Assembly: GCA_001783715.1 (NCBI GenBank)
Contig: MFNF01000001.1
Location: 58,393-122,392, forward strand
Source of the DNA: Candidatus Lambdaproteobacteria bacterium RIFOXYD2_FULL_56_26
GTDB lineage: Bacteria; SAR324; XYD2-FULL-50-16
DNA: 64,000 nt
Reading direction: 5' to 3'
A program made the position numbers and the translations under genes. This document shows, one piece after another, positions 7,124-19,882 of the stretch (the first letter of the stretch is position 1; each line of letters starts with the position of its first letter). The notes under the pieces were generated by a model. The model saw nothing but the letters and a program-made list of their open reading frames with translations, was not told where the DNA came from and searched no databases.

Positions 7124-7134
7124 AAAACCCAGGA

Positions 7135-7344: not shown

Positions 7345-8976
7345 ATGGCCGAACAATCCGTAGGACTGGTTGAGGATTTTCAATCCCAGTTTCAAAATTT
7401 CTTCTCCGGCCTGACCACTGGCAAGAAGATTTTCCTCTTTTCCAGCCTAGGCGGTATTGTCTTAGGGCTGATCGTTTTTGTCTTCTTCACCCAACAAGTC
7501 ACCTGGGCACCCCTGGCCACCGGCCTCAAACAGGACGATGCCTCCAAGATCGTGGCCAAGCTGGACGAGCTGAACATCCAGTACGTCTTGCAGCCCGGCG
7601 GGGGTGGGATCATGGTTCCGGTGGACCAGGTGGACAAGGTCAGGCTCCAGATTGCTTCCTCGGGGTTGCAACTGGGCGGTTTGGTCGGCTTTGAGTTGTT
7701 CGACAAAAACAACTTCGGGGCCACCGAATTCCAGCAACAGGTTCAGTACAAACGGGCCTTGGAAGGAGAGCTGGCCCGATTGATCACCCAAATCGACATC
7801 ATCGAGTCCGCCAAGGTTTCGGTGGCCCTGCCCGAAAAAAGCCTGTTCATCGATGACGAGGTCAAGACCACCGCCAGCGTAGTGGTGGACATGGCCGGCA
7901 GCAACAAGCTGAACCAAAAGGGCGTGAACACCATCGTCAACTTGGTTTCCGGGGCGGTCCCCGGCTTGCAGGCCGAAGACGTGCGGGTTTCGGACTCTTC
8001 GGGCAACCTGCTCTCCAAGGGCCTTTCGGACCAGGACGGCTCCGAATCTCGGGACAAGAACTACGCCTACCTGCAACTGGTGGAACAACGGGTGGAAGCC
8101 AAGTTGTTGAGCCAATTGGAAAAGGTGACCGGCAAGGACCGGGTTGAGGTACGGGTGTCCTTGGACATGGACTTCAACATCTCCGAAACCACCGAAGACT
8201 TGGTGGACCCGGACTTGAGCGCTGTGGTCAGCGAAGAATCCACCTCCGAAAAGGCGACCGGCAGCCGCTCCATCCCCGTAGGGGTCCCTGGGGTAACCTC
8301 CAACAGCCCCGAGGTGCGGGCGGGGGCCTCGGAAATCGCCAACGTTTCGGATGTGGACAAAAAGGTCAAACGGACCAACTACGCCAACTCCAAGCGCCAT
8401 GTGATCAGCAAAAAATCCCCCGGTGGGATCAAACGGATGAGCGTGGCGGTATTGCTGGACGGCAAGTACGAATATGTCCGGGATGATGCCGGAGAGATTG
8501 TAGGTTCGCCGGTGTACAAACCCTGGTCCCCCTCGGACATCCAGATCATTGAATCGGTAGCCAAACAAAGCGTCGGCTTTAGCGCCGAACGGGGCGACAC
8601 CATTACGGTACAAAACATCCGGTTTACCAAACCTTTGGTGGAACAAGAACGGCTCAAACAAGAGCGCAGTCAGGCCACCCGCCGGTTCATCATCGATCTG
8701 GTGCGGTACGTGTTGGTTGGTTTGATCGTGATTGTGCTGGTCTTTATGGTGATCCGGCCAATGGTGATGAAGCTTTCCGCCAAACCCGAAGACCTCGACC
8801 TCCTCATGGGTCTGCCGACCACCATCGGCGAGCTGGAAGGCGAAGAGCTGGAGATCCCGACCGAAAAGGAAACCGGGATTCCGCCTCGAGACAAGATCAT
8901 CGAGATCGCCAAGCAAGACCCGCTCAAGACTGCTTCCTTGGTGCGTACTTGGCTTAAGGAGAAAAAAGGTCCCTAA
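7345..8976 (+). CDS. fliF: Flagellar M-ring protein FliF
   Basis: Two TM helices, GFELFD, RALEGELAR, ASVVV, C-terminal LVRTWL. Confidence 0.97.
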   Translation: MAEQSVGLVEDFQSQFQNFFSGLTTGKKIFLFSSLGGIVLGLIVFVFFTQQVTWAPLATGLKQDDASKIVAKLDELNIQYVLQPGGGGIMVPVDQVDKVRLQIASSGLQLGGLVGFELFDKNNFGATEFQQQVQYKRALEGELARLITQIDIIESAKVSVALPEKSLFIDDEVKTTASVVVDMAGSNKLNQKGVNTIVNLVSGAVPGLQAEDVRVSDSSGNLLSKGLSDQDGSESRDKNYAYLQLVEQRVEAKLLSQLEKVTGKDRVEVRVSLDMDFNISETTEDLVDPDLSAVVSEESTSEKATGSRSIPVGVPGVTSNSPEVRAGASEIANVSDVDKKVKRTNYANSKRHVISKKSPGGIKRMSVAVLLDGKYEYVRDDAGEIVGSPVYKPWSPSDIQIIESVAKQSVGFSAERGDTITVQNIRFTKPLVEQERLKQERSQATRRFIIDLVRYVLVGLIVIVLVFMVIRPMVMKLSAKPEDLDLLMGLPTTIGELEGEELEIPTEKETGIPPRDKIIEIAKQDPLKTASLVRTWLKEKKGP

Positions 8977-8979
8977 CCG

Positions 8980-9981
8980 ATGGAAACCAAACCCGCCTGG
9001 GAGAACCAGTTTCTCCCCCCGCAATTTGAAGACCTTACCCCAGGGGCGGCCAAGGCTGCTCCCAAGGCGGAGCCCCTGCCGGTCACGGTCAAGGACACCG
9101 AAAACGGGGTGCGGCCTTTCCGGTTGGACTCGTTGCTCAAGGATGCCAAGGCCAAGGTCCTCAAACTGGAGGCCAGCGATGCCGCAAGGTTCAGCAGCAA
9201 TCAGTTTGTTGAAGAAGGGACCCTGCTGACCAACGTTGAGGAATACGCCAAAAGGATTCGGGCCGAAGCGGACAAACAGGCGCGGCTGATTTCCCGGCAG
9301 GCCGAATTGGCCTTGTCCGAAGCGGAAGAAACCTTGGCCCACGCCCAGGTGGTGGAGTCGGAGGCCAAAAAGTCCGCTCAAACGATGATTGAAACCGCCG
9401 AGGCGACGGTCGAGAAGATCGAACGGGCGGCCTACGAAAAAGGGTATGCCGAAGGCCTGGCTCGGGGGATGGAACAGGCCCGGGTGGACAACGAACTGGC
9501 CACCGCCAAGGTGATGGACCTCCTGGCCGAGCTGCAAGACCTACGGTTGGCGCTGTTTCGGGAACATGAAACGGAGATTGTCGGGCAGGTCTTGTTGTTG
9601 GCCAAAAAAGTGGTCCACGAAGAACTGCGGACCCAGCCCGAGTTTGTGCTGAACCTGCTCAAAGGGGCGGTGCATTACCTGGAAGGGCAAGGGAAGGTCA
9701 AGATCACCTTACACCCGGTCGAATACGACTTTATCGCCAAACACCAACCCGAACTGGCCGCCTACCTCGAAGAAGGGCAGGTGATCACCCTCAAGCGCAG
9801 CGGGGAAACCTCCCCTTCCGCCCCGGTGATCGAGACGGATTTTGCGGTGGTCGAGCTTTCCTTGGCTAGGCAGTTCGAGGAGGTGGACCACCTTTTGGAA
9901 AACTGCTTGGACGAACGGCGGCAGCTGTTTGACCCTCGGTACAAAGCGGAACGGGAAGCCCAGAAGGGGACCCAAACCTGA
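8980..9981 (+). CDS. fliH: Flagellar assembly protein FliH (N-terminally extended)
   Basis: AYEKGYAEGLARG GxxxG repeats, ITLHP; lies directly before fliI. Confidence 0.85.
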   Translation: METKPAWENQFLPPQFEDLTPGAAKAAPKAEPLPVTVKDTENGVRPFRLDSLLKDAKAKVLKLEASDAARFSSNQFVEEGTLLTNVEEYAKRIRAEADKQARLISRQAELALSEAEETLAHAQVVESEAKKSAQTMIETAEATVEKIERAAYEKGYAEGLARGMEQARVDNELATAKVMDLLAELQDLRLALFREHETEIVGQVLLLAKKVVHEELRTQPEFVLNLLKGAVHYLEGQGKVKITLHPVEYDFIAKHQPELAAYLEEGQVITLKRSGETSPSAPVIETDFAVVELSLARQFEEVDHLLENCLDERRQLFDPRYKAEREAQKGTQT

Positions 9982-10015
9982 AGCTTCTTTCCACCTCCGA
10001 CCTTGGTCTAGCCTA

Positions 10016-11338
10016 ATGTTTACCTTAGAACCCTTTTCCCAAGCGATTGAACAAGCCCGCACCGAGCGCCTGGAAGGCAAGGTGGACGAGGTGGTGGGCT
10101 TTTTGATCCGAGCCCACAACCCTGGAATGCGGATCGGCGGGCGCTGTTACATCCTCAACCGCAAAACCGGGGAAAAGGTGGCCGGAGAGGCAGTTTCGAT
10201 CAAAGGGCGCAACGTGCTGGTGATGCCCCTGGGGGACATTCGGGGGATCGGCCCCGACTCGGTGATCCAGCCGACCGAAGAAAAAACCCAGGTCCCGGTA
10301 GGCCCCGAATTGCTGGGTCGCTGCCTGGACGGCACCGGGCGGCCGATCGACGACCTGGGGCCGATCTTTACCGCCCACAAGGCTAACCTTTATTCCGAAC
10401 CGATCAACCCCCTGCACCGAAGAAGGATCGAAGAGCCCCTGGACGTTGGGGTCAAGGCGATTACCGGGGTGCTGACTCCGGGCAAAGGGCAGCGGATGGC
10501 CATTTTGGCCGGTTCCGGGGTCGGGAAATCGGTCCTCTTGGGTATGATGGCCAGGAACACCACCGCCGAAATCAACGTGATTGCACTGATTGGTGAACGG
10601 GGCCGGGAGGTCCGGGAATTCATCGAACGGGACTTGGGTCCCGAAGGTTTGGCCCACAGCGTGGTGATTGCAGCGACCAGCGACCAGTCCCCCTTGGTGC
10701 GGCTCCACGGGGCCTATCTGGCGACGGCGATTGCCGAATGGTTTAGGGAACAGGGCCGGGACGTGATCCTGATGATGGACTCGGTCACCCGGTTTGCCAT
10801 GGCCCAACGGGAGATCGGCCTTGCCGTCGGCGAACCTCCGACCACCAAAGGTTATCCTCCCTCGGTTTACAGCCTCTTGCCCCGGCTCTTGGAACGGGCG
10901 GGCAACTCCAAATCCCAAGGGTCCCTGACCGGGTTTTACACCGTTCTGATCGAAGGGGACGACCCGAACGAACCGATCGGCGATGCCGTCCGTTCGATCG
11001 TAGATGGCCACATCCTTCTGAGCCGGGACATCGCCGCCCAAGGGCATTATCCGGCCATTGACGTGCTGCGCTCCAAAAGTCGGGTCATGGTGGACGTAAC
11101 CGGCAAGGTGCACCAAAAGTCCGCCAGCCGTTTGGTGCAAACCTTGGCAACCTACAAGGAAGCGGAAGACTTGATCAACATTGGGGCCTATGTTAAGGGT
11201 TCAAACCAGATGATCGATTATTCGATGAACAAAATCGGCCAAATCAACAAATTCCTACGCCAAGAGGTGGAGGAACGAGTGCCGATGATTGAAGCGGAAG
11301 CAAGCCTTGAGCAGATGTTCAAGGATTTCCCGACCTAA
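10016..11338 (+). CDS. fliI: Flagellar export ATPase FliI
   Basis: GSGVGKS Walker A, IGERGREV, MDSVTRFAMAQREIG, GEPPTTKGYPPS. Confidence 0.97.
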   Translation: MFTLEPFSQAIEQARTERLEGKVDEVVGFLIRAHNPGMRIGGRCYILNRKTGEKVAGEAVSIKGRNVLVMPLGDIRGIGPDSVIQPTEEKTQVPVGPELLGRCLDGTGRPIDDLGPIFTAHKANLYSEPINPLHRRRIEEPLDVGVKAITGVLTPGKGQRMAILAGSGVGKSVLLGMMARNTTAEINVIALIGERGREVREFIERDLGPEGLAHSVVIAATSDQSPLVRLHGAYLATAIAEWFREQGRDVILMMDSVTRFAMAQREIGLAVGEPPTTKGYPPSVYSLLPRLLERAGNSKSQGSLTGFYTVLIEGDDPNEPIGDAVRSIVDGHILLSRDIAAQGHYPAIDVLRSKSRVMVDVTGKVHQKSASRLVQTLATYKEAEDLINIGAYVKGSNQMIDYSMNKIGQINKFLRQEVEERVPMIEAEASLEQMFKDFPT

Positions 11339-11362
11339 AACTCCAACCGCAAAAGCAGGCAT

Positions 11363-12319
11363 ATGGGCAAAAAAAGCCGTTTGGGCGGTTGGTGGAAGGC
11401 CGCCTTGGTACTGGTTTGTGGGATAGCCCTGTTTGCCGCCGGCGGCAAGGTGGCCCTGATGGCCTATGCCGCTTTGGAGGCGAAGGGTTGCTTTCCTCCC
11501 GAGCCTTTGGTCACCATGGACGAATGGAAGGCCCAGGGCGAGGTCACCTTTGTGGCGGTTGGAGACATGGGCACCGGGGAGACCCAACAGCTGCGGGTTT
11601 CCCAAGCGATGGAACAGGTGTGCCAGGAAAAAGGTTGCGATTTTGTGCTGGGCCTGGGGGACAACTTTTATCCTGCCGGGGTCCAGGGCCTTCGAGACCC
11701 GCTGTTTGGCAATTACTTTGAAGCGGTGTACGGTCCCTTGAACCTGCCCTTTTTTACGGTGCTTGGGAACCACGACCTCAAGGGGAACATTGAGGCCCAA
11801 AGGCTTTACACCCTAGTCAGCGAACTCTGGCGGATGCCCAGTTACGATTACCGCTTTAAAGCCGGACCGGTCTCCCTGTTCGGGGTCAACTCCAACTGTG
11901 AAGCCTTTTCCTGGCCCCGGCTCCACGGCTGGCTGGCCAAAGCGCCACAGCAGGACTGGAAATTGGTTTTTACCCACCACAATCTTTATGGTTCCGGGGC
12001 GCACCAGGATGCCCCGGTTTTGGAGCGGGGCCTTTGGCAGCTGATGTTCGGCAGCAAGGTGGACCTGCACCTTTCCGGCCATGAGCACCAGTTGGAACAC
12101 CTGCAAATTGCCGGAACCGAGACCGACTATCTGATCAGCGGGGGAGGCGGTGCCGCCTACGGCGGACCCAAGGACCCCAAACCCAGGGAAGGTTCAAAAT
12201 TCCTGCACCCCGGCCAGGGCTTTTTGTGGGTCCATGCCTCGCCCAAGAGGCTGGAACTGGAGTTTTTTGACCTTTACGGAGCTTCCGTTTACCGGTATCA
12301 AAGGACAAGAAAAGAATAA
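11363..12319 (+). CDS. Membrane-anchored or exported metallophosphoesterase (purple/tartrate-resistant acid phosphatase-like)
   Basis: GDMG, GDNFY, GNHD, HH, GHEH motifs; N-terminal hydrophobic helix. Confidence 0.88.
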   Translation: MGKKSRLGGWWKAALVLVCGIALFAAGGKVALMAYAALEAKGCFPPEPLVTMDEWKAQGEVTFVAVGDMGTGETQQLRVSQAMEQVCQEKGCDFVLGLGDNFYPAGVQGLRDPLFGNYFEAVYGPLNLPFFTVLGNHDLKGNIEAQRLYTLVSELWRMPSYDYRFKAGPVSLFGVNSNCEAFSWPRLHGWLAKAPQQDWKLVFTHHNLYGSGAHQDAPVLERGLWQLMFGSKVDLHLSGHEHQLEHLQIAGTETDYLISGGGGAAYGGPKDPKPREGSKFLHPGQGFLWVHASPKRLELEFFDLYGASVYRYQRTRKE

Positions 12320-12340
12320 CCCCAAGGCTAACGAGTCCCT

Positions 12341-13303
12341 TTGACCAGACGTGAGTTCTTGCGCCTGCTTTCCACCGGTGCGCTTTCTACAGCTTTTTTA
12401 TCGACCCAGCTCGGGGAACTGCTCGCCCAAGAAGAAGGCGGACAGGCAGAGTCTTTGGTTTGGCTGACCGGCCACCACAGCCAGACCCACAGCCTGGGCC
12501 TGGTGGGGCAATCCGAATCCTTTGCCTTTTTGGGCCGTTATTTCCAGCGGTTGGAAAACGAAGGGGAAGAACCCTTGGCCGACCAACGTCCGCCCATTTT
12601 GATCTTGGAAGGGTCGTTTGCCGACGATGCCCTGGAACGGGGCAACCAGATCCTTCGGGCCTGGGTCCCCAGAGCCAAGGTCGTGGTTTTGCTCGGCAAC
12701 GAAGCGGCCTTTTCCAAGGAACAGCCGGGCGGCTACCTGGACATGATGGGCCAAGCCTTGTCGGAGGTCCCGGTTCCGGTTATCCGCCTCCCCGGCAGCC
12801 CTGCCCAACCTCGGCACCTCCTGGGCGTGCTCAACCACCTTTTGATGTACGGTCTGCCGGAGCTTGACGAGTTCCGAAGGCCCAAGATGTTCTTTGGCAC
12901 CCTGATCTGTGACCGGTGTGAATACCGGGGCCAGTTTGAGGCCGGGGACTATGTGCAGTACTTTGGGGAAAAGGAAGGCTGCCTGTACCTGCTCGGTTGC
13001 AAAGGCAAGGTAACCTACAACGATTGTCCGACCGCCAAATGGAACGGCGGCATCAACTGGTGCGTCGGGGCCGGGAGCCCTTGCACCGGTTGTTCGGAGC
13101 CCAATTTCCCCGACCACCTGAGCCTGGGCCTTTATGGCCAACTGAGCCACCGCAAGGCGGGGGTTGCCTCCGGCTGGGTGCGACATGCCGAAACCTTGGC
13201 CTACGGTGCTCTGGGGACGACGGTCGTCGGGCTGGGGGTACACCAGGGGGCAAAACGTTCGGTCGCCAGATACCGGATCAAGGTTGACGAGGAGGAAATT
13301 TGA
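12341..13303 (+). CDS. [NiFe]-hydrogenase small-subunit homolog lacking proximal Fe-S ligands (Tat substrate)
   Basis: TRREFL twin-arginine signal; CDRC, CLYLLGCKG, CP...WC...PCTGC; C-terminal anchor helix; proximal Cys positions substituted. Confidence 0.88.
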   Translation: MTRREFLRLLSTGALSTAFLSTQLGELLAQEEGGQAESLVWLTGHHSQTHSLGLVGQSESFAFLGRYFQRLENEGEEPLADQRPPILILEGSFADDALERGNQILRAWVPRAKVVVLLGNEAAFSKEQPGGYLDMMGQALSEVPVPVIRLPGSPAQPRHLLGVLNHLLMYGLPELDEFRRPKMFFGTLICDRCEYRGQFEAGDYVQYFGEKEGCLYLLGCKGKVTYNDCPTAKWNGGINWCVGAGSPCTGCSEPNFPDHLSLGLYGQLSHRKAGVASGWVRHAETLAYGALGTTVVGLGVHQGAKRSVARYRIKVDEEEI

Positions 13304-14760
13304 AGGTCTTGGTGGAACGGGTGCCCAACCTTGAGGGGTTGTTGAAGGTCGCCTACGATGGCGAACCGGGCAAAGAGAAGTATTTCCTTCAAAGTGGTCG
13401 GACCTTGCACCAGGAAGGCCGGTTGTTCGGCAAGTATCCCTTAGAAGCGGTCCAGCACACCCAAACCCTTTCGGCCAAATCCGGGGTGGCCCACGGCATT
13501 GCGGCAGTCCTGGCCTTGGAAAACTACCTGCAGTGGACCCCCACCTACAACGGCCAAAAGATGCGGCAAATCCTGCTGCACCTTTCGACCTTACATTCCC
13601 ACCTGCACCATTTTTACTTCGAGGTCCTGCCGGACTACCTGAACCAGAAGCACTTCAAGGGACAGGGGTTGCTGCGTTCCACCTACTACCCGACCTTGGC
13701 CTTGCGGGAAAAGGACGACCAGGACTTGAGCCCCGAAGCGGCAAAACAGATTTTTACCCACCTGCCCCAAGTGGTTCGGACCTTGGCGGCGCTGCAACAG
13801 GCCATGGCGCTTTTGGGTGGCAAGTACCCGGTGGTGATGAATCTGATCCCCGGCGGAGTGGCTAACACCAATCTGGGCCGGGCGCAGGGGATGAAGCTTT
13901 TGCGGATCTTGGAGTCCGCCAAGGAAATGGTCGAGGAGATTTGGCCGACGGACATCAAAACCGTGATCGCCGGGGCCACCGACCTTTTGCAAAGTTCGGA
14001 CGAGGACCAACAGCTGATCAGCTTCGGCTCCCTGCCTATTGAAAACGGCAAGGAAGAAAAAGCCTATTTCTCCCCGGGGGTTTACGTGGAAGGCAAGCTG
14101 GAGCCGTTGAACGTCACCAAGATCACCGAATCCTACGTGGACACCTACTACCGCCCGGCGGACAACCGGAGCCTGTCCAACGACCTGATCTACGACCTGA
14201 ACAAAAAAAAGGCCCACACCTGGATCAAAGCCGCCCGGTACGAAACCGACGTGGCCCTGACCGGCCCCCTGGCCCGGCTTTTGATCACCCACTACGGCGG
14301 CGGCAACGTGCAGGTTTCCGACTCCATCGCCGGGTGGATCGAAAACCTGGGCCTTTCGATCGACAAGGCGAACAGCGGAGCCGCTCGGCTTTTGGCCGGG
14401 GCCTTCGAGGGAAGGTACATCCTGCAAAACCTCTTTGACAGCCTGCTCAAGCTAGACTTTACCGGTCCGCTCAACCAGCGCAAACCCTTTGCCTTCAAGG
14501 GCCGGGGCATCGGCATGGGCATGGTGGAGGCTCCGGGCGGGGCCTTGCTGCACCAAGTGTACATTGAAGGGGGGAAAATCACCGGGTACCGGATCGTCGC
14601 TCCTTCAAACTGGAACCTTTCGCCAGGCGATGAATTCGGCAAGACCGGACTCCTGGAAGCAGGGTTAAACCGTATGGGAAAATTTGGCCCCCTGCGGCCC
14701 GAAACGGCCATTCGCTTGGCCCACAGCTACTACGCCCAGGCGTTGGACGCAACCCAGTGA
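13300..14760 (+). CDS. [NiFe]-hydrogenase large-subunit homolog lacking all Ni-Fe ligands
   Basis: Scaffold motifs NLEG, HSHLHHFY, GGKYP, WIKAARY, GPLAR, EAPGGAL.H, VAPSNWN; no Cys anywhere in 486 aa; GGAGG RBS, TTG start overlaps upstream TGA. Confidence 0.88.
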   Translation: MKVLVERVPNLEGLLKVAYDGEPGKEKYFLQSGRTLHQEGRLFGKYPLEAVQHTQTLSAKSGVAHGIAAVLALENYLQWTPTYNGQKMRQILLHLSTLHSHLHHFYFEVLPDYLNQKHFKGQGLLRSTYYPTLALREKDDQDLSPEAAKQIFTHLPQVVRTLAALQQAMALLGGKYPVVMNLIPGGVANTNLGRAQGMKLLRILESAKEMVEEIWPTDIKTVIAGATDLLQSSDEDQQLISFGSLPIENGKEEKAYFSPGVYVEGKLEPLNVTKITESYVDTYYRPADNRSLSNDLIYDLNKKKAHTWIKAARYETDVALTGPLARLLITHYGGGNVQVSDSIAGWIENLGLSIDKANSGAARLLAGAFEGRYILQNLFDSLLKLDFTGPLNQRKPFAFKGRGIGMGMVEAPGGALLHQVYIEGGKITGYRIVAPSNWNLSPGDEFGKTGLLEAGLNRMGKFGPLRPETAIRLAHSYYAQALDATQ

Positions 14761-14766
14761 GGGACT

Positions 14767-15306
14767 ATGAATCTACAAGGGTGGTTCTTCTCCCTTTATA
14801 ACTCGGCAGTGCGGCAAACCCGCCGGTTTGGGTTGCCCATTGCCATGTTGCTTTGTTACCTGACCGCCCTGGGGCTCGAACGGGCGGAGTTCCTCCCTTC
14901 TTTTGACCGCAGCGAAATGGACTTGCTGCACCGGGCTTTTGGGTTGTTCCTGTTTGCCTTGCTCCTGCTTTTGCTCTACGACCGGCTCCAAAGGAGCGGT
15001 CGGCCTAAGGTGGGGCTTTCCTCCGCCAAAAATGCGGCCAAAAAACAATTCCGTCAGATCTCCGAAAAAGGCCCCCGCCATTGGGTGGACCTGTTGTTTT
15101 TGGGCGGCTTGAGTTTGATCGTGCTCCTGGGCCTGTTGCTGCACTTCAAGACCCGGCTGGGTTGGACCGGCTGGCCGGGGCTGGAGGGCTTGGGGATCCT
15201 GCACGGCACCTTGGTCTGGTTTTTCTTGAGCGTGATCCTGGTCCGTTATTATCTGGTTTTGACCCGCTGGATGGTCTCCCTGCTTGCCTACCTGAAAGAG
15301 CGCTGA
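14767..15306 (+). CDS. Hydrogenase cytochrome b subunit homolog (4 TM; only two of four heme-ligand His)
   Basis: Four hydrophobic helices, H55 (LLHRAFG) and H146 (ILHGT); third gene of the small-large-cytb triad. Confidence 0.72.
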   Translation: MNLQGWFFSLYNSAVRQTRRFGLPIAMLLCYLTALGLERAEFLPSFDRSEMDLLHRAFGLFLFALLLLLLYDRLQRSGRPKVGLSSAKNAAKKQFRQISEKGPRHWVDLLFLGGLSLIVLLGLLLHFKTRLGWTGWPGLEGLGILHGTLVWFFLSVILVRYYLVLTRWMVSLLAYLKER

Positions 15307-15308
15307 CC

Positions 15309-15953
15309 ATGATCCTGGTGGGGCTGACCGGGGGGATCGGGGCGGGGAAGAGCACGTTGCACCCTTGGGTTGCAGCTTTGGGTTGGGAGGTACTTGATGC
15401 CGACCGGCTGGCTCGGGAAGTGGTGGAGCCTGGGCAGGTAGCCTTTGGCGAAGTGGTGGAACATTTTGGCCCACAGATTCTAGGTTCGGACGGCGGGCTT
15501 GACCGGGCCAAGTTGGCCGCTCAGGTCTTTGCGGACCCGGAGCAACGGAGGGTATTAGAAAAGATCGTACACCGGCAGATCCACCTCAAGAAACAAGCGT
15601 ACCTCAAAGAAATGTATGACCGGAACCCCCAAGCCAAGGTGGTTTATCTGGTCCCCCTGCTGTTTGAGCGGAACCTGGAATCCCAGTTCCAGGCCACGGT
15701 GTTGATTGAGTTGGACCCAGAGGAGCAGTTGCGCCGTTTGGTGCAGCAACGGGGGATGGAGCCGGAGGACGCAAAACGGCGGATGTCCGCCCAGATGCCC
15801 TTGGCCGAAAAGCTCAAACGAGCGGATTTTGTGGTCAACAACAACGGTCCCCTGGAGAAAACCCAGGCGGAGGTGGAGGTTTTGTTCACCCGTCTCGCCC
15901 AGCTTCCCCAGTTGGACCTCCAACAGGTCTTGGACCCCCATGAGCCCCAGTGA
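15309..15953 (+). CDS. coaE: Dephospho-CoA kinase
   Basis: GLTGGIGAGKS, DAD, LDRAKLA, VPLLFE. Confidence 0.93.
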   Translation: MILVGLTGGIGAGKSTLHPWVAALGWEVLDADRLAREVVEPGQVAFGEVVEHFGPQILGSDGGLDRAKLAAQVFADPEQRRVLEKIVHRQIHLKKQAYLKEMYDRNPQAKVVYLVPLLFERNLESQFQATVLIELDPEEQLRRLVQQRGMEPEDAKRRMSAQMPLAEKLKRADFVVNNNGPLEKTQAEVEVLFTRLAQLPQLDLQQVLDPHEPQ

Positions 15954-16614
15954 ACTGACCGGCCAAACCCGAGGGCACATCGCCCAGTTCCAGGAACCCC
16001 GTTTTGCCGCCCATCCCTTGGCGGTCAAAGCTTTTGTGGCCATGCAGGAGAAGGCCCGTGGTCAGGGGTTGGAGCTGGCGATTTTCAGCGGTTTCCGGGA
16101 CTTTGAAACCCAAAGGAAGATTTGGCAAACCAAGGCCACAGGCCAGAGGCCCCTTTATGACCCGAAGGGCCAAGAGATTTCGTTTGATACTTTAGGCCCC
16201 GACGGCCTGATCGAGGCGATTCTCCGCTGGTCCGCCTTGCCGGGGGCCAGTCGGCACCATTGGGGCAGCGACCTGGACCTGATCGACCTCAACGGGATGC
16301 CTCTGGGCTACCGGGTGCAGTTGCTGCCCGATGAGTATGCCCCGGGTGGGGTGTTTGGGAAACTCAACTTTTGGCTGACCCAAAACATCCGGGAATTCGA
16401 GTTTTTCCAGCCCTACCTGGTGGACCGGGGCGGAGTCTCCCCGGAGCCTTGGCACCTTTCTTTTGCCCCGGTGTCGGTCCCCGCCTTGGCCCAAATGCAC
16501 CCGCAACTGCTCAAGGAGGCCTGGGGGCCGGTGGAGATGGTTTTAAAGGACCGATTGTTGGAACGGTTGGAAGAACTGTTTGAACGGTATGTCACCAACA
16601 TCAATCCTCCTTAA
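15940..16614 (+). CDS. M15 family D-Ala-D-Ala carboxypeptidase (VanY-like)
   Basis: SGFRDF, SALPGASRHHWGSDLD, EPWH. Confidence 0.9.
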   Translation: MSPSELTGQTRGHIAQFQEPRFAAHPLAVKAFVAMQEKARGQGLELAIFSGFRDFETQRKIWQTKATGQRPLYDPKGQEISFDTLGPDGLIEAILRWSALPGASRHHWGSDLDLIDLNGMPLGYRVQLLPDEYAPGGVFGKLNFWLTQNIREFEFFQPYLVDRGGVSPEPWHLSFAPVSVPALAQMHPQLLKEAWGPVEMVLKDRLLERLEELFERYVTNINPP

Positions 16615-16766
16615 AAAACAAGGAACTTTCCCTTTAACCCGGTTTGCCCGGTTTCCCCTGCCCCCCAAAGCGCCCAAAGGCTTGGAAACCGAAGGGGACG
16701 GTCCTTTTGGGGGTTGCCGCAATTTTACAAATCGGGGATGATGGGAAAAATTATTTCAGGTCCCCC

Positions 16767-17477
16767 ATGTCAACCAAACGCCTGCTTTTGATCGCCCTCC
16801 TGGGGTTGATGCCCCTGGCGGCGATGGCCTTTTATCCCGAACAGGTGACCCGGCTGGTCAACACCAAGGCCTGCCCCGACTGCAACTTGGTGGATGCCAA
16901 CCTGGAGTCCTTGAGCCTGGAAGGGGCCAACCTGCAAGGAGCCAAGCTCAACGGAGCCAAGGCCGACTGGATCGTGCTGACCGGAGCGGACCTGCGCAAC
17001 GTTAGGGCCGAAGAGGCCAGCTTCCGGTGGGCCCGGTTGGGTTCAGCGGACCTCTCCGGGGCTCGGTTGATCGGGGCGGATTTTAACTTGATCCAAGGGG
17101 GGCAGTCCTTTTGGAAAGGGGCCAACCTCCAAGGGGCGGACCTCAGTTTCGCCGACCTTAGCGAGGCCGACCTTTCCGGGGCGGAGTTGTATTTTGCCAA
17201 GATGGTGGGGGTCAATCTCCATGCCGCTAGATTGATCCGGGCCAACCTGGAAAACGCCTTTTTGGGCCAGGCCAACCTGACCGGGGCCTACATGGCCGGA
17301 GCCAAGCTGGGCAAGGCAAGCCTGGAAGACAGCATCCTCAAACACGCCGACCTCCAAGGGGCCGACCTGACCGGAGCCAAGGTCAAGGGCGCTACCTTCG
17401 AGGGGGCCAAACTGGGCGAGGCAACCTGGATCGATGGGCGGGTCTGCGCTCGGGATTCGGTCGGCGAGTGCAACTGA
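16767..17477 (+). CDS. Exported pentapeptide repeat protein
   Basis: Signal peptide, CxxC cap, many A(D/N)LxG repeats, C-terminal WIDG..C......C. Confidence 0.9.
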   Translation: MSTKRLLLIALLGLMPLAAMAFYPEQVTRLVNTKACPDCNLVDANLESLSLEGANLQGAKLNGAKADWIVLTGADLRNVRAEEASFRWARLGSADLSGARLIGADFNLIQGGQSFWKGANLQGADLSFADLSEADLSGAELYFAKMVGVNLHAARLIRANLENAFLGQANLTGAYMAGAKLGKASLEDSILKHADLQGADLTGAKVKGATFEGAKLGEATWIDGRVCARDSVGECN

Positions 17478-17482
17478 GGCTT

Positions 17483-17785
17483 ATGGGCTTTGAAGGGGAA
17501 TTTGTCCCGGTGGACGAAGAGGTCCTCAAACGGGAGAAGGCCAAGGCCAGAGAACTGCGCCAGTCCCAGTGGTGGAAAAATCTCCGTGGCCAAGGGGTCT
17601 GCTACTACTGCAAAAAAAAGGTGCATCCCTCCGAGTTGACCTTGGACCACAAGATCCCGCTCAGTCGGGGCGGCAAGTCGGTCAAGGGCAATCTGGTTGC
17701 CGCCTGCAAGGAATGTAACAACAAAAAAAAATACCTGCTCCCGGTAGAGTGGGAAGACTTTGTCCAAGGCAAGCTCAATGACTAA
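17483..17785 (+). CDS. Small HNH endonuclease
   Basis: CYYC...LDHKIPLSRGG...NLVAACKECN. Confidence 0.9.
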   Translation: MGFEGEFVPVDEEVLKREKAKARELRQSQWWKNLRGQGVCYYCKKKVHPSELTLDHKIPLSRGGKSVKGNLVAACKECNNKKKYLLPVEWEDFVQGKLND

Positions 17786-18704
17786 GCTCCAAAACCTGCC
17801 CCGCCCCTTGATGGCCTTGGCCCCCATGGACGGGGTGACCGACCGAGCCTTCCGGCAGATTGTGCGCAAGCTCAATCCTGGGGTGTTGCTGTATTCAGAG
17901 TTCACCAACGTCAACGGGATCGTCCATTCCTCCAAGGTGCGGGAAAGGCTGCTCTTTGAGGGGGCCGAGCTGCCTTATGTGGTGCAGATCTTTGGCCGGG
18001 ACCCGTTGCTGTTTGCCCAAATTGCCCGGGAAGTCCAGGACCTGGGGATCACCGGCATCGACATCAACCTGGGCTGCCCCTCCAAGCGGGTGGTCAGTGG
18101 CGGGAACGGTGCGGCCTTGATCAAGGAACCGGACTTGGCTTTTGCGATTGTTGAAGCGACTGCAAAGGCTACGGCCCTGCCGGTGACGGTCAAAACCCGG
18201 CTGGGCTGGGCGGATGCCTCGACCCTGGTGGGCTTCGCCAAAGGGCTGGAATCCGCCGGGGCTAGCCTGATCACCGTCCATGGCCGGACCGCCAAGATGG
18301 CCTACCGAGGGGAAGCGGACTGGGAACCTATTTATGAGCTCAAGAAGGAACTGAAGATTCCGGTCCTGGGCAACGGTGACCTAAGGTCTCTGGAACAAGG
18401 AATGGAGCAGCTCAAGGACCTGGATGGCTTTATGATAGGCCGGGCGGCAGTGGGCAACCCTTGGGTCTTTTGGCCCCAGGAGCAACGAGATAAATTGACC
18501 CTCAAAGACAAGGTGGACGTGATGTTGGAGCATTTTACCCTGCTGAGACGTTACCAGTCGGAACACAAAACCCTGGTGGAGTTCCGCAAACACCTGGGCG
18601 GTTATCTGAGCGGCTTTCGGGATGCCAAGGCCCTGCGCCGGGAATTGATGGAAACCCAAACGGAACAAGACTTCACCTTAGCAGCCCTGAGGCTGGCCTC
18701 ATGA
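17778..18704 (+). CDS. dusB: tRNA-dihydrouridine synthase (DusB-like)
   Basis: LAPMDG, DINLGCP, VKTRLG, HGRT, GNGD, IGRAAVGNPW. Confidence 0.88.
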   Translation: MTKLQNLPRPLMALAPMDGVTDRAFRQIVRKLNPGVLLYSEFTNVNGIVHSSKVRERLLFEGAELPYVVQIFGRDPLLFAQIAREVQDLGITGIDINLGCPSKRVVSGGNGAALIKEPDLAFAIVEATAKATALPVTVKTRLGWADASTLVGFAKGLESAGASLITVHGRTAKMAYRGEADWEPIYELKKELKIPVLGNGDLRSLEQGMEQLKDLDGFMIGRAAVGNPWVFWPQEQRDKLTLKDKVDVMLEHFTLLRRYQSEHKTLVEFRKHLGGYLSGFRDAKALRRELMETQTEQDFTLAALRLAS

Positions 18705-19882
18705 GCGAATCGGACCTGTACCTCCGCCGAGGGGTTTCCTCGGCGAAAACCGAAGTGCACCAAGCGATTGCGGGCATGGACAAGGGGCTCTATCCGGGGG
18801 CCTTTGCCCAGGTCCTGCCCGACCTGATCGGCGGGGACCGGGATTTCTGTTTTATGATGCACGCCGATGGCGCTGGGACCAAGTCCTCTCTGGCCTACCT
18901 GTACTGGAAGGAAACCGGTGACCTTTCGGTGTTTCGGGGCATTGCCCAAGACTCCCTGGTGATGAACCTGGACGACCTCGCCTGTGTGGGGGCGCTGGAC
19001 GGTTTTGTGCTGTCGAATACCATAGGGCGCAACAAACTTCTGGTCCCCGGAGAGGTGATCAAAGAGGTGATCTTGGGTTACCAGGAACAGGTGGAGCTTT
19101 TGGCCCAAGAAGGCATCGGGATGGTCATGGCCGGAGGGGAAACCGCCGACCTGGGGGACTTGGTGCGCACCTTGGTGGTGGATTCCACCTTGGCGGTGCG
19201 GCTCAAACGGTCCCAGGTGATCGACCTGAGCCGGGTTCGCCCTGGAGATGTGATCGTCTCTTTTGCCAGTTTCGGCCAAGCGAGGTGGGAGCGGACCTAC
19301 AATTCGGGGATCGGCAGCAATGGCTTGACTGCGGCTAGGCACGACAGCCTGGACAAAAGTTATGCCGACCGTTACCCGGAAACCTATGCCCCCGAAGTGC
19401 CCCGGAACTTGGTTTACATCGGCCCCGGCAAACTGACCGACCCGCTCGAAGGCACCCCGCTCAACCTGGGCCAAGCCCTGCTTTCCCCGACCCGAACCTA
19501 CGCCCCTTTGATCAAAAAACTGGTGGCCGCCTTTGGTGGCGAGCTGCACGGCCTGATCCACTGCTCCGGCGGCGGGCAGACCAAGTGCCTCAAGTTTGGC
19601 CAGGGGATTCACTACCACAAGGACCAACTGTTTGACCTGCCCCCGGTGTTTGCTTGGATCCAAAAGCACAACCGCTACAGCCTCAAGCAGATGTTACCGG
19701 TGTACAACCTGGGGGCCCGGATGGAGGCGATCCTGCCCGGCTCTTTGGCCCAAGAAGCGGTGGAACTCTCCCGGTCTTTGGGGATTGAGGCCCGGATTTC
19801 GGGACGGCTGGAAGCCTCGGGCAGTAAGGGCAACCGTCTGACCGTCAAGCACCAAGGGGAGGAGCTTCACTTTGAAGCCTAG
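18701..19882 (+). CDS. purM: Phosphoribosylformylglycinamidine cyclo-ligase (AIR synthase), atypical long subtype
   Basis: HADGAGTK, MNLDD, GGETAD, GSNG, LLSPTRTY, HCSGGG. Confidence 0.88.
   Translation: MSESDLYLRRGVSSAKTEVHQAIAGMDKGLYPGAFAQVLPDLIGGDRDFCFMMHADGAGTKSSLAYLYWKETGDLSVFRGIAQDSLVMNLDDLACVGALDGFVLSNTIGRNKLLVPGEVIKEVILGYQEQVELLAQEGIGMVMAGGETADLGDLVRTLVVDSTLAVRLKRSQVIDLSRVRPGDVIVSFASFGQARWERTYNSGIGSNGLTAARHDSLDKSYADRYPETYAPEVPRNLVYIGPGKLTDPLEGTPLNLGQALLSPTRTYAPLIKKLVAAFGGELHGLIHCSGGGQTKCLKFGQGIHYHKDQLFDLPPVFAWIQKHNRYSLKQMLPVYNLGARMEAILPGSLAQEAVELSRSLGIEARISGRLEASGSKGNRLTVKHQGEELHFEA

What the first reader, a model, noticed from the sequence alone, without database searches (positions are those of the whole stretch)
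12341..15306. Intact 'pseudo-hydrogenase' operon: group 1 [NiFe]-hydrogenase triad with coordinated removal of the H2-activating centre
Seen: three tightly packed, frameshift-free genes in the canonical small-large-cytochrome b order, embedded between a phosphatase and coaE, with no hyp or maturation-protease genes in the window. All Ni-Fe ligands, all proximal Fe-S ligands and one heme pair are substituted. The Tat signal, medial and distal Fe-S ligands, the other heme pair and the structural scaffold motifs are kept. Established: Ni-less homologs are known for group 4/complex I-type subunits (Ehr, NuoD). I do not know of a described equivalent for the Tat-exported group 1 architecture. Inference: random decay would not remove whole cofactor sites while sparing others and keeping three ORFs intact. 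This suggests a repurposed periplasmic complex with a shortened wire (two Fe-S clusters to one heme), acting for example as an electron adaptor for another partner, a redox sensor, or an enzyme with a new substrate pocket.
Basis: partly seen in the sequence, partly recalled or inferred. Interest (0 to 1): 0.92.

Follow-up and report, generated by a model that had tools for sequence, protein, structure and literature searches.

The report
Nickel-free hydrogenase look-alike operon in SAR324
Three intact genes copy the layout of a membrane-bound hydrogen-oxidising enzyme but have lost every residue that holds the nickel-iron centre, and this stripped-down form has been kept by selection across two orders of SAR324 bacteria, so it must now do something other than use hydrogen.

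Summary
Window 12341-15306 holds three tightly packed genes: a Tat-signal small subunit, a large subunit and a cytochrome b. All three are homologous to a group 1 membrane-bound [NiFe]-hydrogenase.

- **Lost ligands.** None of 64 distinct family large subunits has a Cys at any of the four Ni-Fe positions, and the catalytic Arg is also gone. None of 21 small subunits keeps a proximal-cluster Cys.
- **Kept ligands.** The small subunit keeps eight Cys. The distal His is Cys and the medial Pro is Cys in 21 of 21, which predicts two all-Cys [4Fe-4S] clusters. The cytochrome b keeps only the His pair near the periplasmic side.
- **Not decay.** The Cys-less proteins form one clade of 27 tree rows. 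They occur in 16 of 18 genomes of the window's own family and 19 of 19 of a second order. dN/dS is 0.04-0.18. They persist in genomes with no HypD match, including two single-contig genomes.
- **Context.** The window's own genome carries a separate canonical hydrogenase operon.

The function is untested. My best guess is a short electron link between membrane and periplasm, with the large subunit as a scaffold. Six full-text searches found no description of it.

The parts
12341..13303 (+). Small-subunit homolog, 320 aa. It has a Tat signal, an N-terminal domain without a proximal cluster, an eight-Cys Fe-S block and a C-terminal membrane helix.
   Evidence: NiFe_hyd_SSU_C scores 8.9e-28. TIGR00391 scores 137.9 bits against a cut-off of 179.5.
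12347..12358 (+). Twin-arginine motif R3-R4-E-F6 of the Tat signal.
   Evidence: R-R is kept in 21 of 21 family small subunits. F is kept in 15 of 15 f1-type rows and is L/A/I in the six f6-type rows. TatC is present in the genome.
12479..12799 (+). Former proximal-cluster ligand positions: S47, H50, E121 and S153.
   Evidence: None of 21 rows has Cys at any of the four positions. The Cys-3 position is E or D in 20 of 21.
12908..13093 (+). Fe-S block holding the only eight Cys of the protein. C190 (canonical His), C193, C214 and C220 are the distal ligands. C229, C241 (canonical Pro), C248 and C251 are the medial ligands.
   Evidence: All eight are invariant in 21 of 21 rows. The roles of the His and Pro positions are taken from passages of PMC3701524.
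13172..13267 (+). C-terminal helix, residues about 278-309, with H301. It is a predicted membrane anchor.
   Evidence: The AF2 model shows a helix at 278-309, but the model has low confidence. H301 is invariant in 15 of 15 f1-type rows and present in only 1 of 6 f6-type rows.
13300..14760 (+). Large-subunit homolog, 486 aa, with no Cys and no Ni-Fe ligands.
   Evidence: NiFeSe_Hases scores 3.7e-51. The Atlas model has pTM 0.90 and TM 0.91 to a hydrogenase large-subunit cluster.
13471..13494 (+). L1-motif equivalent: S58 (Cys-1), S61 (Cys-2) and H65 (kept).
   Evidence: Cys-1 is S in 60 of 64 and G in 4. Cys-2 is never Cys. The His is kept in 61 of 64.
14536..14538 (+). G413, at the position of the canonical 'PRG' arginine.
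   Evidence: Arg is present in 0 of 64 family rows, against 91% of 75 canonical rows.
14731..14757 (+). L2-motif equivalent, YAQALDATQ followed by the stop codon. Q480 replaces Cys-3 and D483 replaces Cys-4. There is no C-terminal extension.
   Evidence: The Cys-4 position is D or E in 64 of 64. All 64 end at the column of the canonical mature C-terminal His. The genome's own canonical subunit has 15 more residues.
14767..15306 (+). Cytochrome b homolog, 179 aa, with four predicted helices.
   Evidence: Ni_hydr_CYTB scores 4.9e-8. The AF2 model has pLDDT 83. The top Foldseek match is the Hyd-1 cytochrome b chain 4gd3_A, with probability 1.00, TM 0.59 and a weak E-value of 0.096.
14929..14931 (+). 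H55, seven residues into helix 2. It is a predicted ligand of the heme on the periplasmic side.
   Evidence: Invariant in 16 of 16 rows. The topology is inferred.
15202..15204 (+). H146, seven residues into helix 4. It is the predicted second ligand of the same heme.
   Evidence: Invariant in 16 of 16 rows and aligned to the first canonical TM4 His.
15244..15246 (+). R160, at the position of the canonical second TM4 His (the heme on the cytoplasmic side).
   Evidence: K in 11 and R in 5 of 16 rows. The TM1 His region is deleted in 16 of 16.

Best explanation
**What it is (shown).** This is an ancient, selectively maintained derivative of a Tat-exported, membrane-bound group 1-type [NiFe]-hydrogenase. 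It has no nickel-iron site and does not depend on the hyp genes. It has lost both ends of the canonical electron path:
- the Ni-Fe site, its catalytic Arg and the proximal Fe-S cluster on the periplasmic end;
- the cytoplasmic-side heme of the cytochrome b on the membrane end.

It keeps only the middle of the path: two clusters with four Cys ligands each and one bis-His heme near the periplasmic face.

**What follows (inferred).** It cannot activate H2.

**How it most likely works (about 35-40% likely).** The small subunit and cytochrome b form a short electron link between the membrane (the quinone pool, through a site near the remaining heme) and the periplasm. The Cys-less large subunit is kept as the structural partner on which the small subunit folds and with which it is exported. 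The conserved Ser (at Cys-1) and Asp/Glu (at Cys-4) would then tie the two former ligand segments together in place of the metal. The His-to-Cys and Pro-to-Cys changes are the same two changes that bias engineered hydrogenases towards inward, reductive electron flow. This suggests electrons run from the membrane to the periplasmic module.
For: **Homology and ligand state.**
-.
- 0 of 64 LSUs have a Cys at any Ni-Fe position and 0 of 64 keep the PRG Arg.
- 0 of 21 SSUs have a proximal-cluster Cys.
- Eight Cys are invariant in 21 of 21 SSUs, including distal His to Cys and medial Pro to Cys.
- In the cytochrome b, H55 and H146 are invariant in 16 of 16. The TM1 His is deleted in 16 of 16 and the second TM4 His is K or R in 16 of 16.

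**Maturation.** There is no C-terminal extension in 64 of 64 LSUs.

**Single origin.** The f1-type and f6-type Cys-less LSUs form one clade of 27 of 132 rows, with local support 100 (FastTree).

**Distribution (88 genomes of the phylum).**
- A strong match is present in 16 of 18 genomes of the window's own family and in the one f5 genome.
- A divergent Cys-less form is present in 19 of 19 f6 genomes.

**Selection.**
- L017/L018: LSU dN/dS 0.069 (dS 0.94) and cytochrome b 0.035.
- Window/L006: SSU 0.135, LSU 0.184, cytochrome b 0.169. Flanking coaE gives 0.208 and fliI 0.058.

**Independence from Ni-Fe maturation.**
- No HypD match in 14 of 19 f6 genomes, including single-contig G005 and G006 and near-closed G002 and G012.
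- No HypD match in G082 (98% complete) and G085 (96% complete).
- The own genome has a separate canonical operon whose members pass the NCBIfam cut-offs.

**Fold.**
- The LSU Atlas model reaches TM 0.91 to a hydrogenase LSU cluster.
- The cytochrome b model's best match is the Hyd-1 cytochrome b.
- 29 LSU positions are at least 85% conserved with the same residue in both the family (n=65) and canonical enzymes (n=75).

**Complex prediction.** SSU residues 35-320 with the cytochrome b scored 0.43 against a best control of 0.02, rated 'weak support'. That mark was reached by 58 of 80 solved complexes and 2 of 110 mismatched pairs. At 0.60 or under, only 7 of those 80 solved complexes passed, as did both mismatches. 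The runs agree in at least 65% of contacts and the partner's pLDDT is at least 74. A like complex (4GD3) is solved, so the pass may come from memory.

**Direction of flow.** Passages of PMC3701524 report the following.
- Df P238C raised H2 evolution about twofold.
- Df H184C nearly abolished uptake.
- Am HynS H230C/P285C raised evolution 3-4 fold.
Against: - No experiment or expression data exist, and no RNA holder was listed.
- With the proximal cluster gone, the medial cluster is a dead end unless a partner or substrate reaches it. No partner was identified.
- The canonical quinone site is recalled to lie beside the lost cytoplasmic-side heme. A quinone site on the periplasmic side is therefore pure inference.
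- The LSU evolves as slowly as the SSU and keeps many motif residues around the old active site. A mere scaffold might be expected to drift more.
- Cofactor content (two [4Fe-4S] clusters and one heme) is predicted from ligands only.
- The SSU model was poor over the Fe-S domain (pLDDT 26-50).
- In the f6 order the downstream 4-TM ORF matches the cytochrome b profile only weakly. hmmsearch found no hit and hhalign gave probability 41% with E 2.8e-4.
- The TM2 His sits two columns off the canonical His in the MAFFT alignment.
Confidence: 0.55

Rival explanations
1. It is a new enzyme. The vacated Ni-Fe pocket (Ser, Asp/Glu, and the retained Glu and His), or the vacated proximal-cluster site beside the medial cluster, binds a different metal or a substrate. 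Electrons from the membrane are then used for a periplasmic reduction.
For: - The LSU is under purifying selection as strong as the SSU.
- The Cys-4 position is acidic in 64 of 64. The Glu of 'RIEGH' and the L1 His are each kept in 61 of 64.
- The proximal Cys-3 position is E or D in 20 of 21.
- The two wire substitutions match engineered variants that favour reductive flow.
Against: - Only two positions at the old active site (S58, D483) are family-specific at 85% or more; S96 and L114 also pass but lie outside the ligand motifs. Most canonical pocket invariants simply became variable.
- Cys-2 and Cys-3 replacements vary: S/N/T/A/G/L and Q/H/S/M/N/K/G/L.
- The replacements at the proximal site differ between the two orders.
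- The gap left by the proximal cluster would make transfer from the medial cluster to the old active site slow. This rests on recalled cluster spacing of about 12 Å per step.
Confidence: 0.15
2. It is a redox or oxygen sensor, or a regulator without catalytic throughput. The Fe-S clusters and heme would report the state of the periplasm or quinone pool to a membrane partner.
For: - A wire with both ends removed suits sensing.
- The cytochrome b has a strongly conserved C-terminal stretch, with W168, Y175 and L176 invariant and Y161 and Y162 nearly so. Topology places it on the cytoplasmic side, where it could contact a partner.
Against: - No output domain, kinase or regulator is conserved beside the genes.
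- Known hydrogenase-derived sensors (HupUV type, recalled) keep the Ni-Fe site.
Confidence: 0.15
3. It is an accessory to the neighbouring purple-acid-phosphatase-like enzyme. It would supply electrons that keep a periplasmic Fe(III)-Fe(II) centre in its active mixed-valent state.
For: - The upstream gene matches mammalian-type purple acid phosphatases (1ute, 8.5e-25).
- That gene starts with a hydrophobic segment after a basic stretch (read from the translation, not scanned).
- It is directly upstream in 5 of 15 fetched loci and in the window.
- By coordinates it lies next to the LSU in 7 other f1 genomes.
Against: - There is no phyletic coupling. The phosphatase is found in 35 of 45 f7 genomes, which lack the Cys-less operon.
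- It was not found in 10 of 19 f6 genomes that have the operon, including single-contig G006.
- It is absent from the locus in 10 of 15 fetched loci.
Confidence: 0.05
4. It has a flagellum-linked function. The operon lies inside flagellar gene clusters, so it might feed or sense the motor or the export apparatus.
For: - fliH-fliI lie upstream in the window and in 8 of 15 loci.
- fliW-like and flgL-like ORFs, named from their N-terminal sequences only, lie downstream in 3 loci.
- In the f6 order, ORFs read as flhA, flhB and fliR (named from size and sequence only) lie nearby in L038. An FHIPEP (FlhA) match lies at G012:C14:153526-155502, inside that locus.
Against: - FlhA is present in 41 of 45 f7 genomes, which lack the operon.
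- FlhA is absent from the single-contig genomes G005 and G006, which keep the operon.
- The neighbours are kin, so shared synteny is not independent evidence.
Confidence: 0.03
5. The genes are decaying relics of a hydrogenase operon with no function, or they still form a working hydrogenase with unusual ligands.
For: The databases annotate the large subunit as 'nickel-dependent hydrogenase large subunit'.
Against: - Three intact ORFs are present in every locus that covers them.
- dN/dS is 0.04-0.18.
- Identity falls to 29-36% between orders while the ligand pattern stays the same.
- No Cys ligand, no catalytic Arg and no maturation extension remain.
- The genes are present without a HypD match.
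Confidence: 0.03

Closest known systems
Group 1 membrane-bound respiratory [NiFe]-hydrogenase with cytochrome b (HyaABC / HydABC type; PDB 4GD3), including the genome's own operon on contig C26
   Same: - The gene order is small subunit, large subunit, cytochrome b.
- The small subunit carries a Tat signal and a C-terminal membrane helix.
- The large-subunit fold is kept (TM 0.91).
- 29 large-subunit positions are shared at 85% or more.
- The medial and distal cluster Cys are kept.
- The cytochrome b fold is kept.
   Different: - There are no Ni-Fe ligands and no PRG Arg.
- There is no C-terminal extension and no protease gene beside it.
- There is no proximal cluster.
- The distal His is Cys and the medial Pro is Cys.
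- Only one of the two heme His pairs remains.
- It occurs without a HypD match.
- It falls below all NCBIfam cut-offs, whereas the C26 operon passes them.
Ni-free relatives of group 4 hydrogenases: complex I NuoB/NuoD, Ehr, Mbx/MBS (recalled from the literature, not tested here)
   Same: A hydrogenase large/small-subunit pair has lost the Ni-Fe site and been re-used for another redox job.
   Different: - Those modules face the cytoplasm and have no Tat signal.
- They keep the proximal cluster (N2) and lack medial and distal clusters.
- They sit on antiporter-like membrane subunits.
- Here the opposite set of clusters is kept, on a periplasmic enzyme anchored by a cytochrome b.
Engineered small-subunit variants: D. 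fructosovorans P238C and H184C, A. macleodii HynS H230C/P285C (PMC3701524, passages read)
   Same: The same two positions carry the same two substitutions, medial Pro to Cys and distal His to Cys. Here they are natural and invariant in 21 of 21.
   Different: Those variants are active hydrogenases with an intact Ni-Fe site and proximal cluster.
HupK/HoxV large-subunit-like maturation scaffold (recalled, not tested)
   Same: It is a large-subunit homolog without a full set of Ni-Fe Cys.
   Different: It is a cytoplasmic helper of canonical hydrogenases and is encoded among hyp and hox genes. It has no dedicated small subunit, Tat signal or cytochrome b. The family here persists without a HypD match or a canonical enzyme.
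Quinol-linked electron-supply modules for periplasmic enzymes (NapGH, NrfCD, MsrQ; recalled): what it may work like
   Same: A membrane heme or quinol-binding subunit is paired with periplasmic Fe-S clusters that carry electrons between the quinone pool and the periplasm.
   Different: There is no sequence relationship, no identified acceptor enzyme, and no quinone site shown here.
A second Cys-less large-subunit lineage in Bacillota (P0109, named by its source Thermincola ferriacetica 'nickel-dependent hydrogenase large subunit', and P0211-P0216)
   Same: These are PF00374 proteins with no Cys in the L1 region.
   Different: - They form a separate branch in the tree.
- They are 440-447 aa and end before the L2 motif.
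- Their partners and gene context were not examined.

Membership tests
Group 1 membrane-bound [NiFe]-hydrogenase | Large subunit homologous to PF00374 with the hydrogenase fold | tested here: met
   Pfam 3.7e-51. PDB hits at 1e-31 to periplasmic [NiFe] and [NiFeSe] enzymes. Atlas structural TM 0.91.
Group 1 membrane-bound [NiFe]-hydrogenase | Four Cys in the L1 (RxCGxCxxxH) and L2 (DPCxxCxxH) motifs that bind Ni-Fe | tested here: not met
   The window has S58, S61, Q480 and D483. None of 64 family members has a Cys at any of the four positions.
Group 1 membrane-bound [NiFe]-hydrogenase | Conserved Arg of the 'PRG' motif above the active site | tested here: not met
   G413 in the window. Arg is present in 0 of 64 family rows, against 91% of 75 canonical rows.
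Group 1 membrane-bound [NiFe]-hydrogenase | C-terminal extension removed by a dedicated endopeptidase, and dependence on HypA-F | tested here: not met
   No residue lies beyond the mature C-terminal His column in 64 of 64. No HypD match in 14 of 19 f6 genomes and in five genomes of the own order: G070, G072, G082, G085 (f1) and G069 (f5).
Group 1 membrane-bound [NiFe]-hydrogenase | Small subunit with a Tat signal | tested here: met
   The RR motif is kept in 21 of 21. TatC is present in the genome.
Group 1 membrane-bound [NiFe]-hydrogenase | Three Fe-S clusters in the small subunit (proximal, medial, distal) | tested here: not met
   The proximal ligands are absent in 21 of 21. The medial and distal ligands are present, with Pro to Cys and His to Cys. 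TIGR00391 scores 137.9 bits against a cut-off of 179.5.
Group 1 membrane-bound [NiFe]-hydrogenase | Diheme cytochrome b with four His ligands | tested here: not met
   Two of the four remain (H55, H146). The TM1 His is deleted and the second TM4 His is K or R in 16 of 16. There is no NCBIfam hit. Pfam gives 33.4 bits against a cut-off of 30.1.
Group 1 membrane-bound [NiFe]-hydrogenase | Placement within a HydDB group 1 subgroup | not testable with these tools
   HydDB is not available. In the FastTree of 132 rows the Cys-less clade is not nested in any canonical subclade sampled.
Ni-free group 4 derivatives (NuoBD / Ehr / Mbx) | Cytoplasmic module that keeps only the proximal (N2-type) cluster, has no Tat signal and pairs with antiporter-like subunits | tested here: not met
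   Here there is a Tat signal, the proximal ligands are lost, the medial and distal ligands are kept, and the partner is a cytochrome b. NuoD models do not list this protein.
HupK/HoxV scaffold | Stand-alone large-subunit-like protein encoded among hydrogenase maturation genes | tested here: not met
   The LSU is always flanked by a small-subunit homolog and a 4-TM protein, away from hyp genes. It is present without a HypD match. No direct sequence comparison with HupK was made.

The most novel reading that the evidence does not exclude
A respiratory hydrogenase scaffold has been turned into a new periplasmic redox enzyme. Quinol-derived electrons would enter through the single remaining heme and run inward along two all-Cys [4Fe-4S] clusters, tuned like engineered 'reductive' variants. 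They would then be used at a new site created where the proximal cluster or Ni-Fe centre used to be. This would be a second, independent re-use of the hydrogenase fold besides complex I, and it keeps the opposite half of the wire.
Probability: 0.15. Interest if true: 0.9.

Novelty: new variant of a known kind. Interest (0 to 1): 0.72.

Why it matters
**Evolution of the fold.** Loss of the Ni-Fe site with re-use of the protein pair is known to me only for the cytoplasmic group 4 / complex I lineage. Here a Tat-exported, cytochrome b-anchored group 1-type enzyme has done the same. It kept the other half of the electron wire, and the result has been conserved across two orders of a widespread phylum.

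**A testable system.** It shows what a hydrogenase scaffold is good for without hydrogen, and how the small subunit's wire works when cut at both ends.

**Annotation.** These proteins pass Pfam PF00374 and are named 'nickel-dependent hydrogenase large subunit' in public records. Gene-based surveys can therefore credit SAR324 and Lambdaproteobacteria genomes with H2 metabolism they may not have. 14 of 19 genomes of the f6 order carry the gene but gave no HypD match.

Tried and rejected
**Searches and scans that gave nothing usable.**
- The search for related loci with the single LSU found no relative. The alignment query worked.
- A PDB sequence search with the cytochrome b gave 0 hits at E up to 10.
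- The promoter and terminator scan of 8500-17000 found fewer sites than the shuffles (1 against 1.8, and 8 against 15.3), so nothing was used.
- Expression: no RNA holder was listed.

**Models.**
- The AF2 model of the small subunit had mean pLDDT 56.8, with the Fe-S domain at 26-50. It was not sent to fold search. Only the N-domain pattern and the C-terminal helix were read from it.
- The tools give no model coordinates. Pocket, cavity and distance analyses could not be done.

**The f6 downstream ORF.**
- hmmsearch of the f1 cytochrome b profile against f6 ORFs found no hit.
- hhalign gave probability 41% and E 2.8e-4.
- Homology of the f6 downstream 4-TM ORF is therefore only suggested. It has two invariant His in 4 of 4 sequences.

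**Rejected links.**
- The flagellar link was rejected on distribution.
- The phosphatase link was rejected on distribution.
- Recent decay was rejected on dN/dS and clade depth. dS is near or beyond saturation for most pairs, and Nei-Gojobori failed for several. Only L017/L018 (dS 0.94) is a clean estimate.

**Literature.**
- Six full-text searches found no paper describing a Cys-less group 1-type operon. Only listings and abstract starts were seen for most papers.
- Passages were read in PMC8780430 (irrelevant), PMC6695573, PMC3701524 and PMC12319191.
- Supplements were closed and may hold hydrogenase tables for SAR324 genomes.
- Subscription papers are not covered.

**Recalled, not from any call.**
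- Residue numbers for Desulfovibrio, and the FdnI and Wolinella heme ligands.
- The role of the PRG Arg.
- The cyt b-dependent quinone site.

Full report
**What is in the window.** Three + strand ORFs lie exactly at the stated coordinates.
- The small-subunit homolog (SSU) spans 12341-13303 and is 320 aa. It starts with TTG directly after an in-frame TAA.
- The large-subunit homolog (LSU) spans 13300-14760, is 486 aa, and overlaps the SSU by 4 nt.
- The cytochrome b homolog spans 14767-15306, is 179 aa, and begins 6 nt after the LSU stop.

Upstream lie fliH, fliI and a phosphatase (11363-12319). Downstream, coaE starts at 15309, 2 nt after the cytochrome b stop.

Pfam gives NiFeSe_Hases 3.7e-51, NiFe_hyd_SSU_C 8.9e-28 and Ni_hydr_CYTB 4.9e-8. 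Oxidored_q6 scores 24 bits, below its 27-bit cut-off. Every NCBIfam hydrogenase model scores far under its cut-off. For example, TIGR00391 gives 137.9 bits against 179.5 and NF033181 gives 185 against 600. The cytochrome b has no NCBIfam hit. The best solved relatives by sequence are periplasmic [NiFe] and [NiFeSe] hydrogenases, at about 1e-31 for the LSU and 1e-33 for the SSU.

**Ligand state.** I aligned the three proteins to the genome's own canonical operon and to other canonical sequences, then tabulated the ligand columns across all relatives in hand.

*LSU, 64 distinct family members.*
- No Cys occurs at any of the four Ni-Fe positions.
- Cys-1 is Ser in 60 and Gly in 4.
- Cys-4 is Asp or Glu in all 64.
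- Cys-2 and Cys-3 are variable.
- The 'PRG' Arg is absent in all 64.
- The Glu of 'RIEGH' and the His after L1 are each kept in 61.
- All 64 chains stop at the column of the mature C-terminal His. The genome's canonical enzyme has 15 further residues.

*SSU, 21 rows.*
- The twin arginines are kept in 21.
- None of the four proximal-cluster positions has a Cys in any row.
- The distal His is Cys in 21.
- The 'NWP' Pro between the medial Cys is Cys in 21.
- The other six Cys are kept in 21.
- The window's SSU has exactly eight Cys, all in this block, and the LSU has none.

Passages of PMC3701524 identify the Pro position as the one associated with the medial cluster and the His as the distal-cluster ligand. 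From recall, the Pro-to-Cys change converts the medial [3Fe-4S] cluster to [4Fe-4S]. I therefore predict two all-Cys [4Fe-4S] clusters.

*Cytochrome b, 16 rows.*
- H55 and H146 are invariant.
- The TM1 His region is deleted in all 16.
- The second TM4 His is Lys in 11 and Arg in 5.

The AF2 model (pLDDT 83) has four long helices. H55 and H146 each lie seven residues into helices 2 and 4. The loop at residues 79-102 is rich in Lys and Arg, so by the positive-inside rule it should face the cytoplasm. This places both His near the periplasmic face. By analogy with FdnI and HydC (recalled), the heme next to the distal cluster is kept and the heme next to the quinone site is lost. The best structural match is the Hyd-1 cytochrome b chain 4gd3_A, with probability 1.00, TM 0.59 and a weak E-value of 0.096. 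CybB and FdnI follow.

**It is a family, not an accident.**
- A search of 5.8 billion proteins gave 47 relatives at 34-65% identity, all ending without Cys. Scores then drop from 243 bits to 105 bits or less for canonical hydrogenases.
- Fifteen genomic loci were fetched. Their record titles name SAR324 (4), Candidatus Lambdaproteobacteria (1), Deltaproteobacteria (1), uncultured Pseudomonadota (2) or just 'bacterium' (7).
- Fourteen loci show SSU-LSU-cytochrome b in that order. The fifteenth starts inside the cluster at a contig end.
- Across 88 genomes of the phylum, a strong match (385 bits or more) is present in 16 of 18 genomes of the window's family. The two without are 79% and 68% complete. 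The one f5 genome also has it.
- A more distant version (146-215 bits, 29-36% identity) is present in 19 of 19 genomes of family f6, in another order.
- Nothing was found in f2-f4 (0 of 4). In f7, 8 of 45 genomes gave only weak, canonical-type matches.
- I fetched six f6 loci. Their LSU and SSU show the same losses and retentions, including His to Cys and Pro to Cys.
- In f6 a 160-201 aa four-helix ORF with two invariant His follows the LSU in four of the six loci; L039 and L040 showed no such ORF. Its homology to the cytochrome b is only weakly supported.
- In a FastTree of 132 LSU-family rows, the f1-type and f6-type proteins form one clade of 27, all Cys-less, with local support 100. This is most simply one ancient loss.
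- A profile search of 1.84 billion representatives found 2282 hits at E up to 0.001. The top ranks were these two types.

**Selection.**
- For the closest pair (L017/L018), LSU dN/dS is 0.069 at dS 0.94 and the cytochrome b gives 0.035.
- For window against L006, SSU is 0.135, LSU 0.184 and cytochrome b 0.169. The neighbours give fliI 0.058, coaE 0.208 and the phosphatase 0.309. dS in that pair is 1.5-2.3, so those ratios are rough.
- The LSU is as constrained as the SSU.
- Comparing 65 family and 75 canonical LSUs, 29 positions are at least 85% conserved with the same residue in both.
- Only four positions are family-specific at that level. Two of them are the Ser at Cys-1 and the Asp at Cys-4.
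- Most other canonical active-site invariants have become variable. These include the Arg of RxCGxC, the PRG Arg and the DP of DPC.

**Independence from hydrogen metabolism.**
- The window's genome has a complete canonical operon on contig C26: small subunit, 573-aa large subunit, cytochrome b and maturation protease. All pass the NCBIfam cut-offs.
- ORFs read as hypB, hypF and hypE (named from the translations only, not family-scanned) lie beside it, and HypD is on C14.
- The Cys-less operon also occurs where no HypD match was found. That covers 14 of 19 f6 genomes, among them single-contig G005 and G006, G002 (6 contigs) and G012 (10 contigs, 97% complete).
- It also covers G082 (98% complete) and G085 (96% complete) of the window's own family.
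- In G002, G005, G006 and G012 the Cys-less LSU was the only LSU-like match.

**Neighbours.**
- The triad is the conserved unit. fliH-fliI lie upstream in 8 of 15 loci, the phosphatase is directly upstream in 5 of 15, and coaE is directly downstream in 8 of 15.
- An ORF resembling an M15-type peptidase (named from its sequence, not scanned), and ORFs resembling fliW and flgL (named from their N-terminal sequences only), recur downstream. ORFs read as flagellar export genes also lie nearby in f6. Of these only flhA is backed by a family match (FHIPEP in L038; ORFs).
- FlhA is present in 41 of 45 f7 genomes without the operon. It is absent from G005 and G006, which have the operon. I read the flagellar setting as inherited synteny.
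- The phosphatase resembles mammalian-type purple acid phosphatases (1ute, 8.5e-25), which is suggestive for a redox partner. However, it is widespread in f7 (35 of 45) and was not found in 10 of 19 f6 genomes.

**How it most likely works.**
- *Shown:* every residue needed to bind Ni-Fe, to bind the proximal cluster and to bind the second heme is gone. The residues for two four-Cys clusters and one bis-His heme are invariant. Tat export signals are kept. All three genes are under purifying selection.
- *Inferred:* the complex cannot activate H2, and what remains is the middle of the canonical wire.
- *Most likely (about 35-40%):* it is a short electron link between the membrane and the periplasm. 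The LSU would be the structural partner that the SSU folds on and is exported with. The Ser/Asp pair would replace the metal as a clamp between the two former ligand segments.
- The two natural wire substitutions are the ones that shifted engineered enzymes towards H2 evolution, that is, inward electron flow. This hints at flow from membrane to periplasm.
- The complex prediction for SSU plus cytochrome b gave 0.43 against a best control of 0.02, rated 'weak support'. The mark was reached by 58 of 80 solved complexes and 2 of 110 mismatches. At 0.60 or under, only 7 of those 80 solved complexes passed, as did both mismatches. The runs agree in at least 65% of contacts and the partner's pLDDT is at least 74. 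Because 4GD3 is solved, this shows likeness rather than binding.
- The main weakness is that no donor, acceptor or quinone site has been identified.

**Comparison and novelty.**
- As a family member it fails the defining tests of a [NiFe]-hydrogenase: the ligands, the Arg, the maturation features, three clusters and a diheme cytochrome.
- It is the mirror image of the known Ni-free group 4 derivatives (complex I NuoB/NuoD, Ehr, Mbx; recalled). Those keep the proximal cluster and are cytoplasmic.
- Six full-text searches found no description. Public records call the LSU a nickel-dependent hydrogenase or a hypothetical protein.
- I rate it a new variant of a known kind, a hydrogenase-derived non-hydrogenase module, with high specialist interest but unknown function.
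- A separate Cys-less LSU lineage exists in Bacillota, in a record named Thermincola ferriacetica. Loss of the site may therefore have happened more than once.

**Limits.**
- There are no expression data and no model coordinates.
- HydDB placement could not be run.
- The tree is a FastTree with a midpoint root only.
- The genomes compared are kin, so counts across them are not independent.

Noticed in passing
G000 contig C26, about 12100-20500 (L001 covers 12696-17252): The same genome carries a canonical hydrogenase operon: small subunit, 573-aa large subunit, cytochrome b and maturation protease. ORFs read as hypB, hypF and hypE (by eye from the translations) lie beside it. The small subunit has a CxCC motif with extra Cys, which I recall as typical of oxygen-tolerant enzymes.
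   Followed up: partly
window 11363-12319 (+): The gene just upstream encodes a 318-aa metallophosphoesterase. Its N-terminus reads as a hydrophobic segment after a basic stretch (translation, not scanned). Its best solved relatives are mammalian-type purple acid phosphatases (1ute, 8.5e-25). It is adjacent to the operon in about half of the own-family genomes but shows no phyletic coupling to it.
   Followed up: yes
proteins P0109, P0111, P0140, P0211-P0216: This is a separate lineage of 440-450 aa PF00374 proteins without L1 Cys that end just before the L2 motif. One source names P0109 as Thermincola ferriacetica. Further scattered rows without both CxxC motifs (for example P0088, P0195 and P0201) were not checked for truncation.
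   Followed up: partly
window about 6000-11340; L011, L014, L017 downstream; L038 497-4683: The operon sits inside flagellar gene neighbourhoods in both orders. ORFs read by eye as flgC and fliH-fliI (window labels, matched in the loci by BLAST) lie upstream here, and ORFs resembling fliW and flgL lie downstream in relatives. In L038 an FHIPEP (FlhA) match lies nearby, beside ORFs read as flhB and fliR. Distribution argues against a functional tie.
   Followed up: yes
L035 6499-6996 (-), L036 8250-8729, L037 7962-8537, L038 8698-9300: In the f6 order the gene after the large subunit is a 160-201 aa four-helix protein with one invariant His in helix 2 and one in helix 4. It is too diverged to match the cytochrome b profile with confidence.
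   Followed up: partly
window 15900-16614, 16644-17477 and 17468-17785 (+): Downstream of coaE lie three ORFs: one resembling an M15-type peptidase, one with pentapeptide-repeat-like sequence, and a small ORF I labelled HNH-like. All three names come from reading the sequences only; no family scan was run. The first recurs directly after the operon in several relatives.
   Followed up: no
L041 (G049:C417) 5656-8153 (-): One f7 genome of the same phylum has a canonical hydrogenase (all Cys present) whose large subunit ends at the C-terminal His without an extension and whose small subunit has a Tat signal. Its type was not determined.
   Followed up: no
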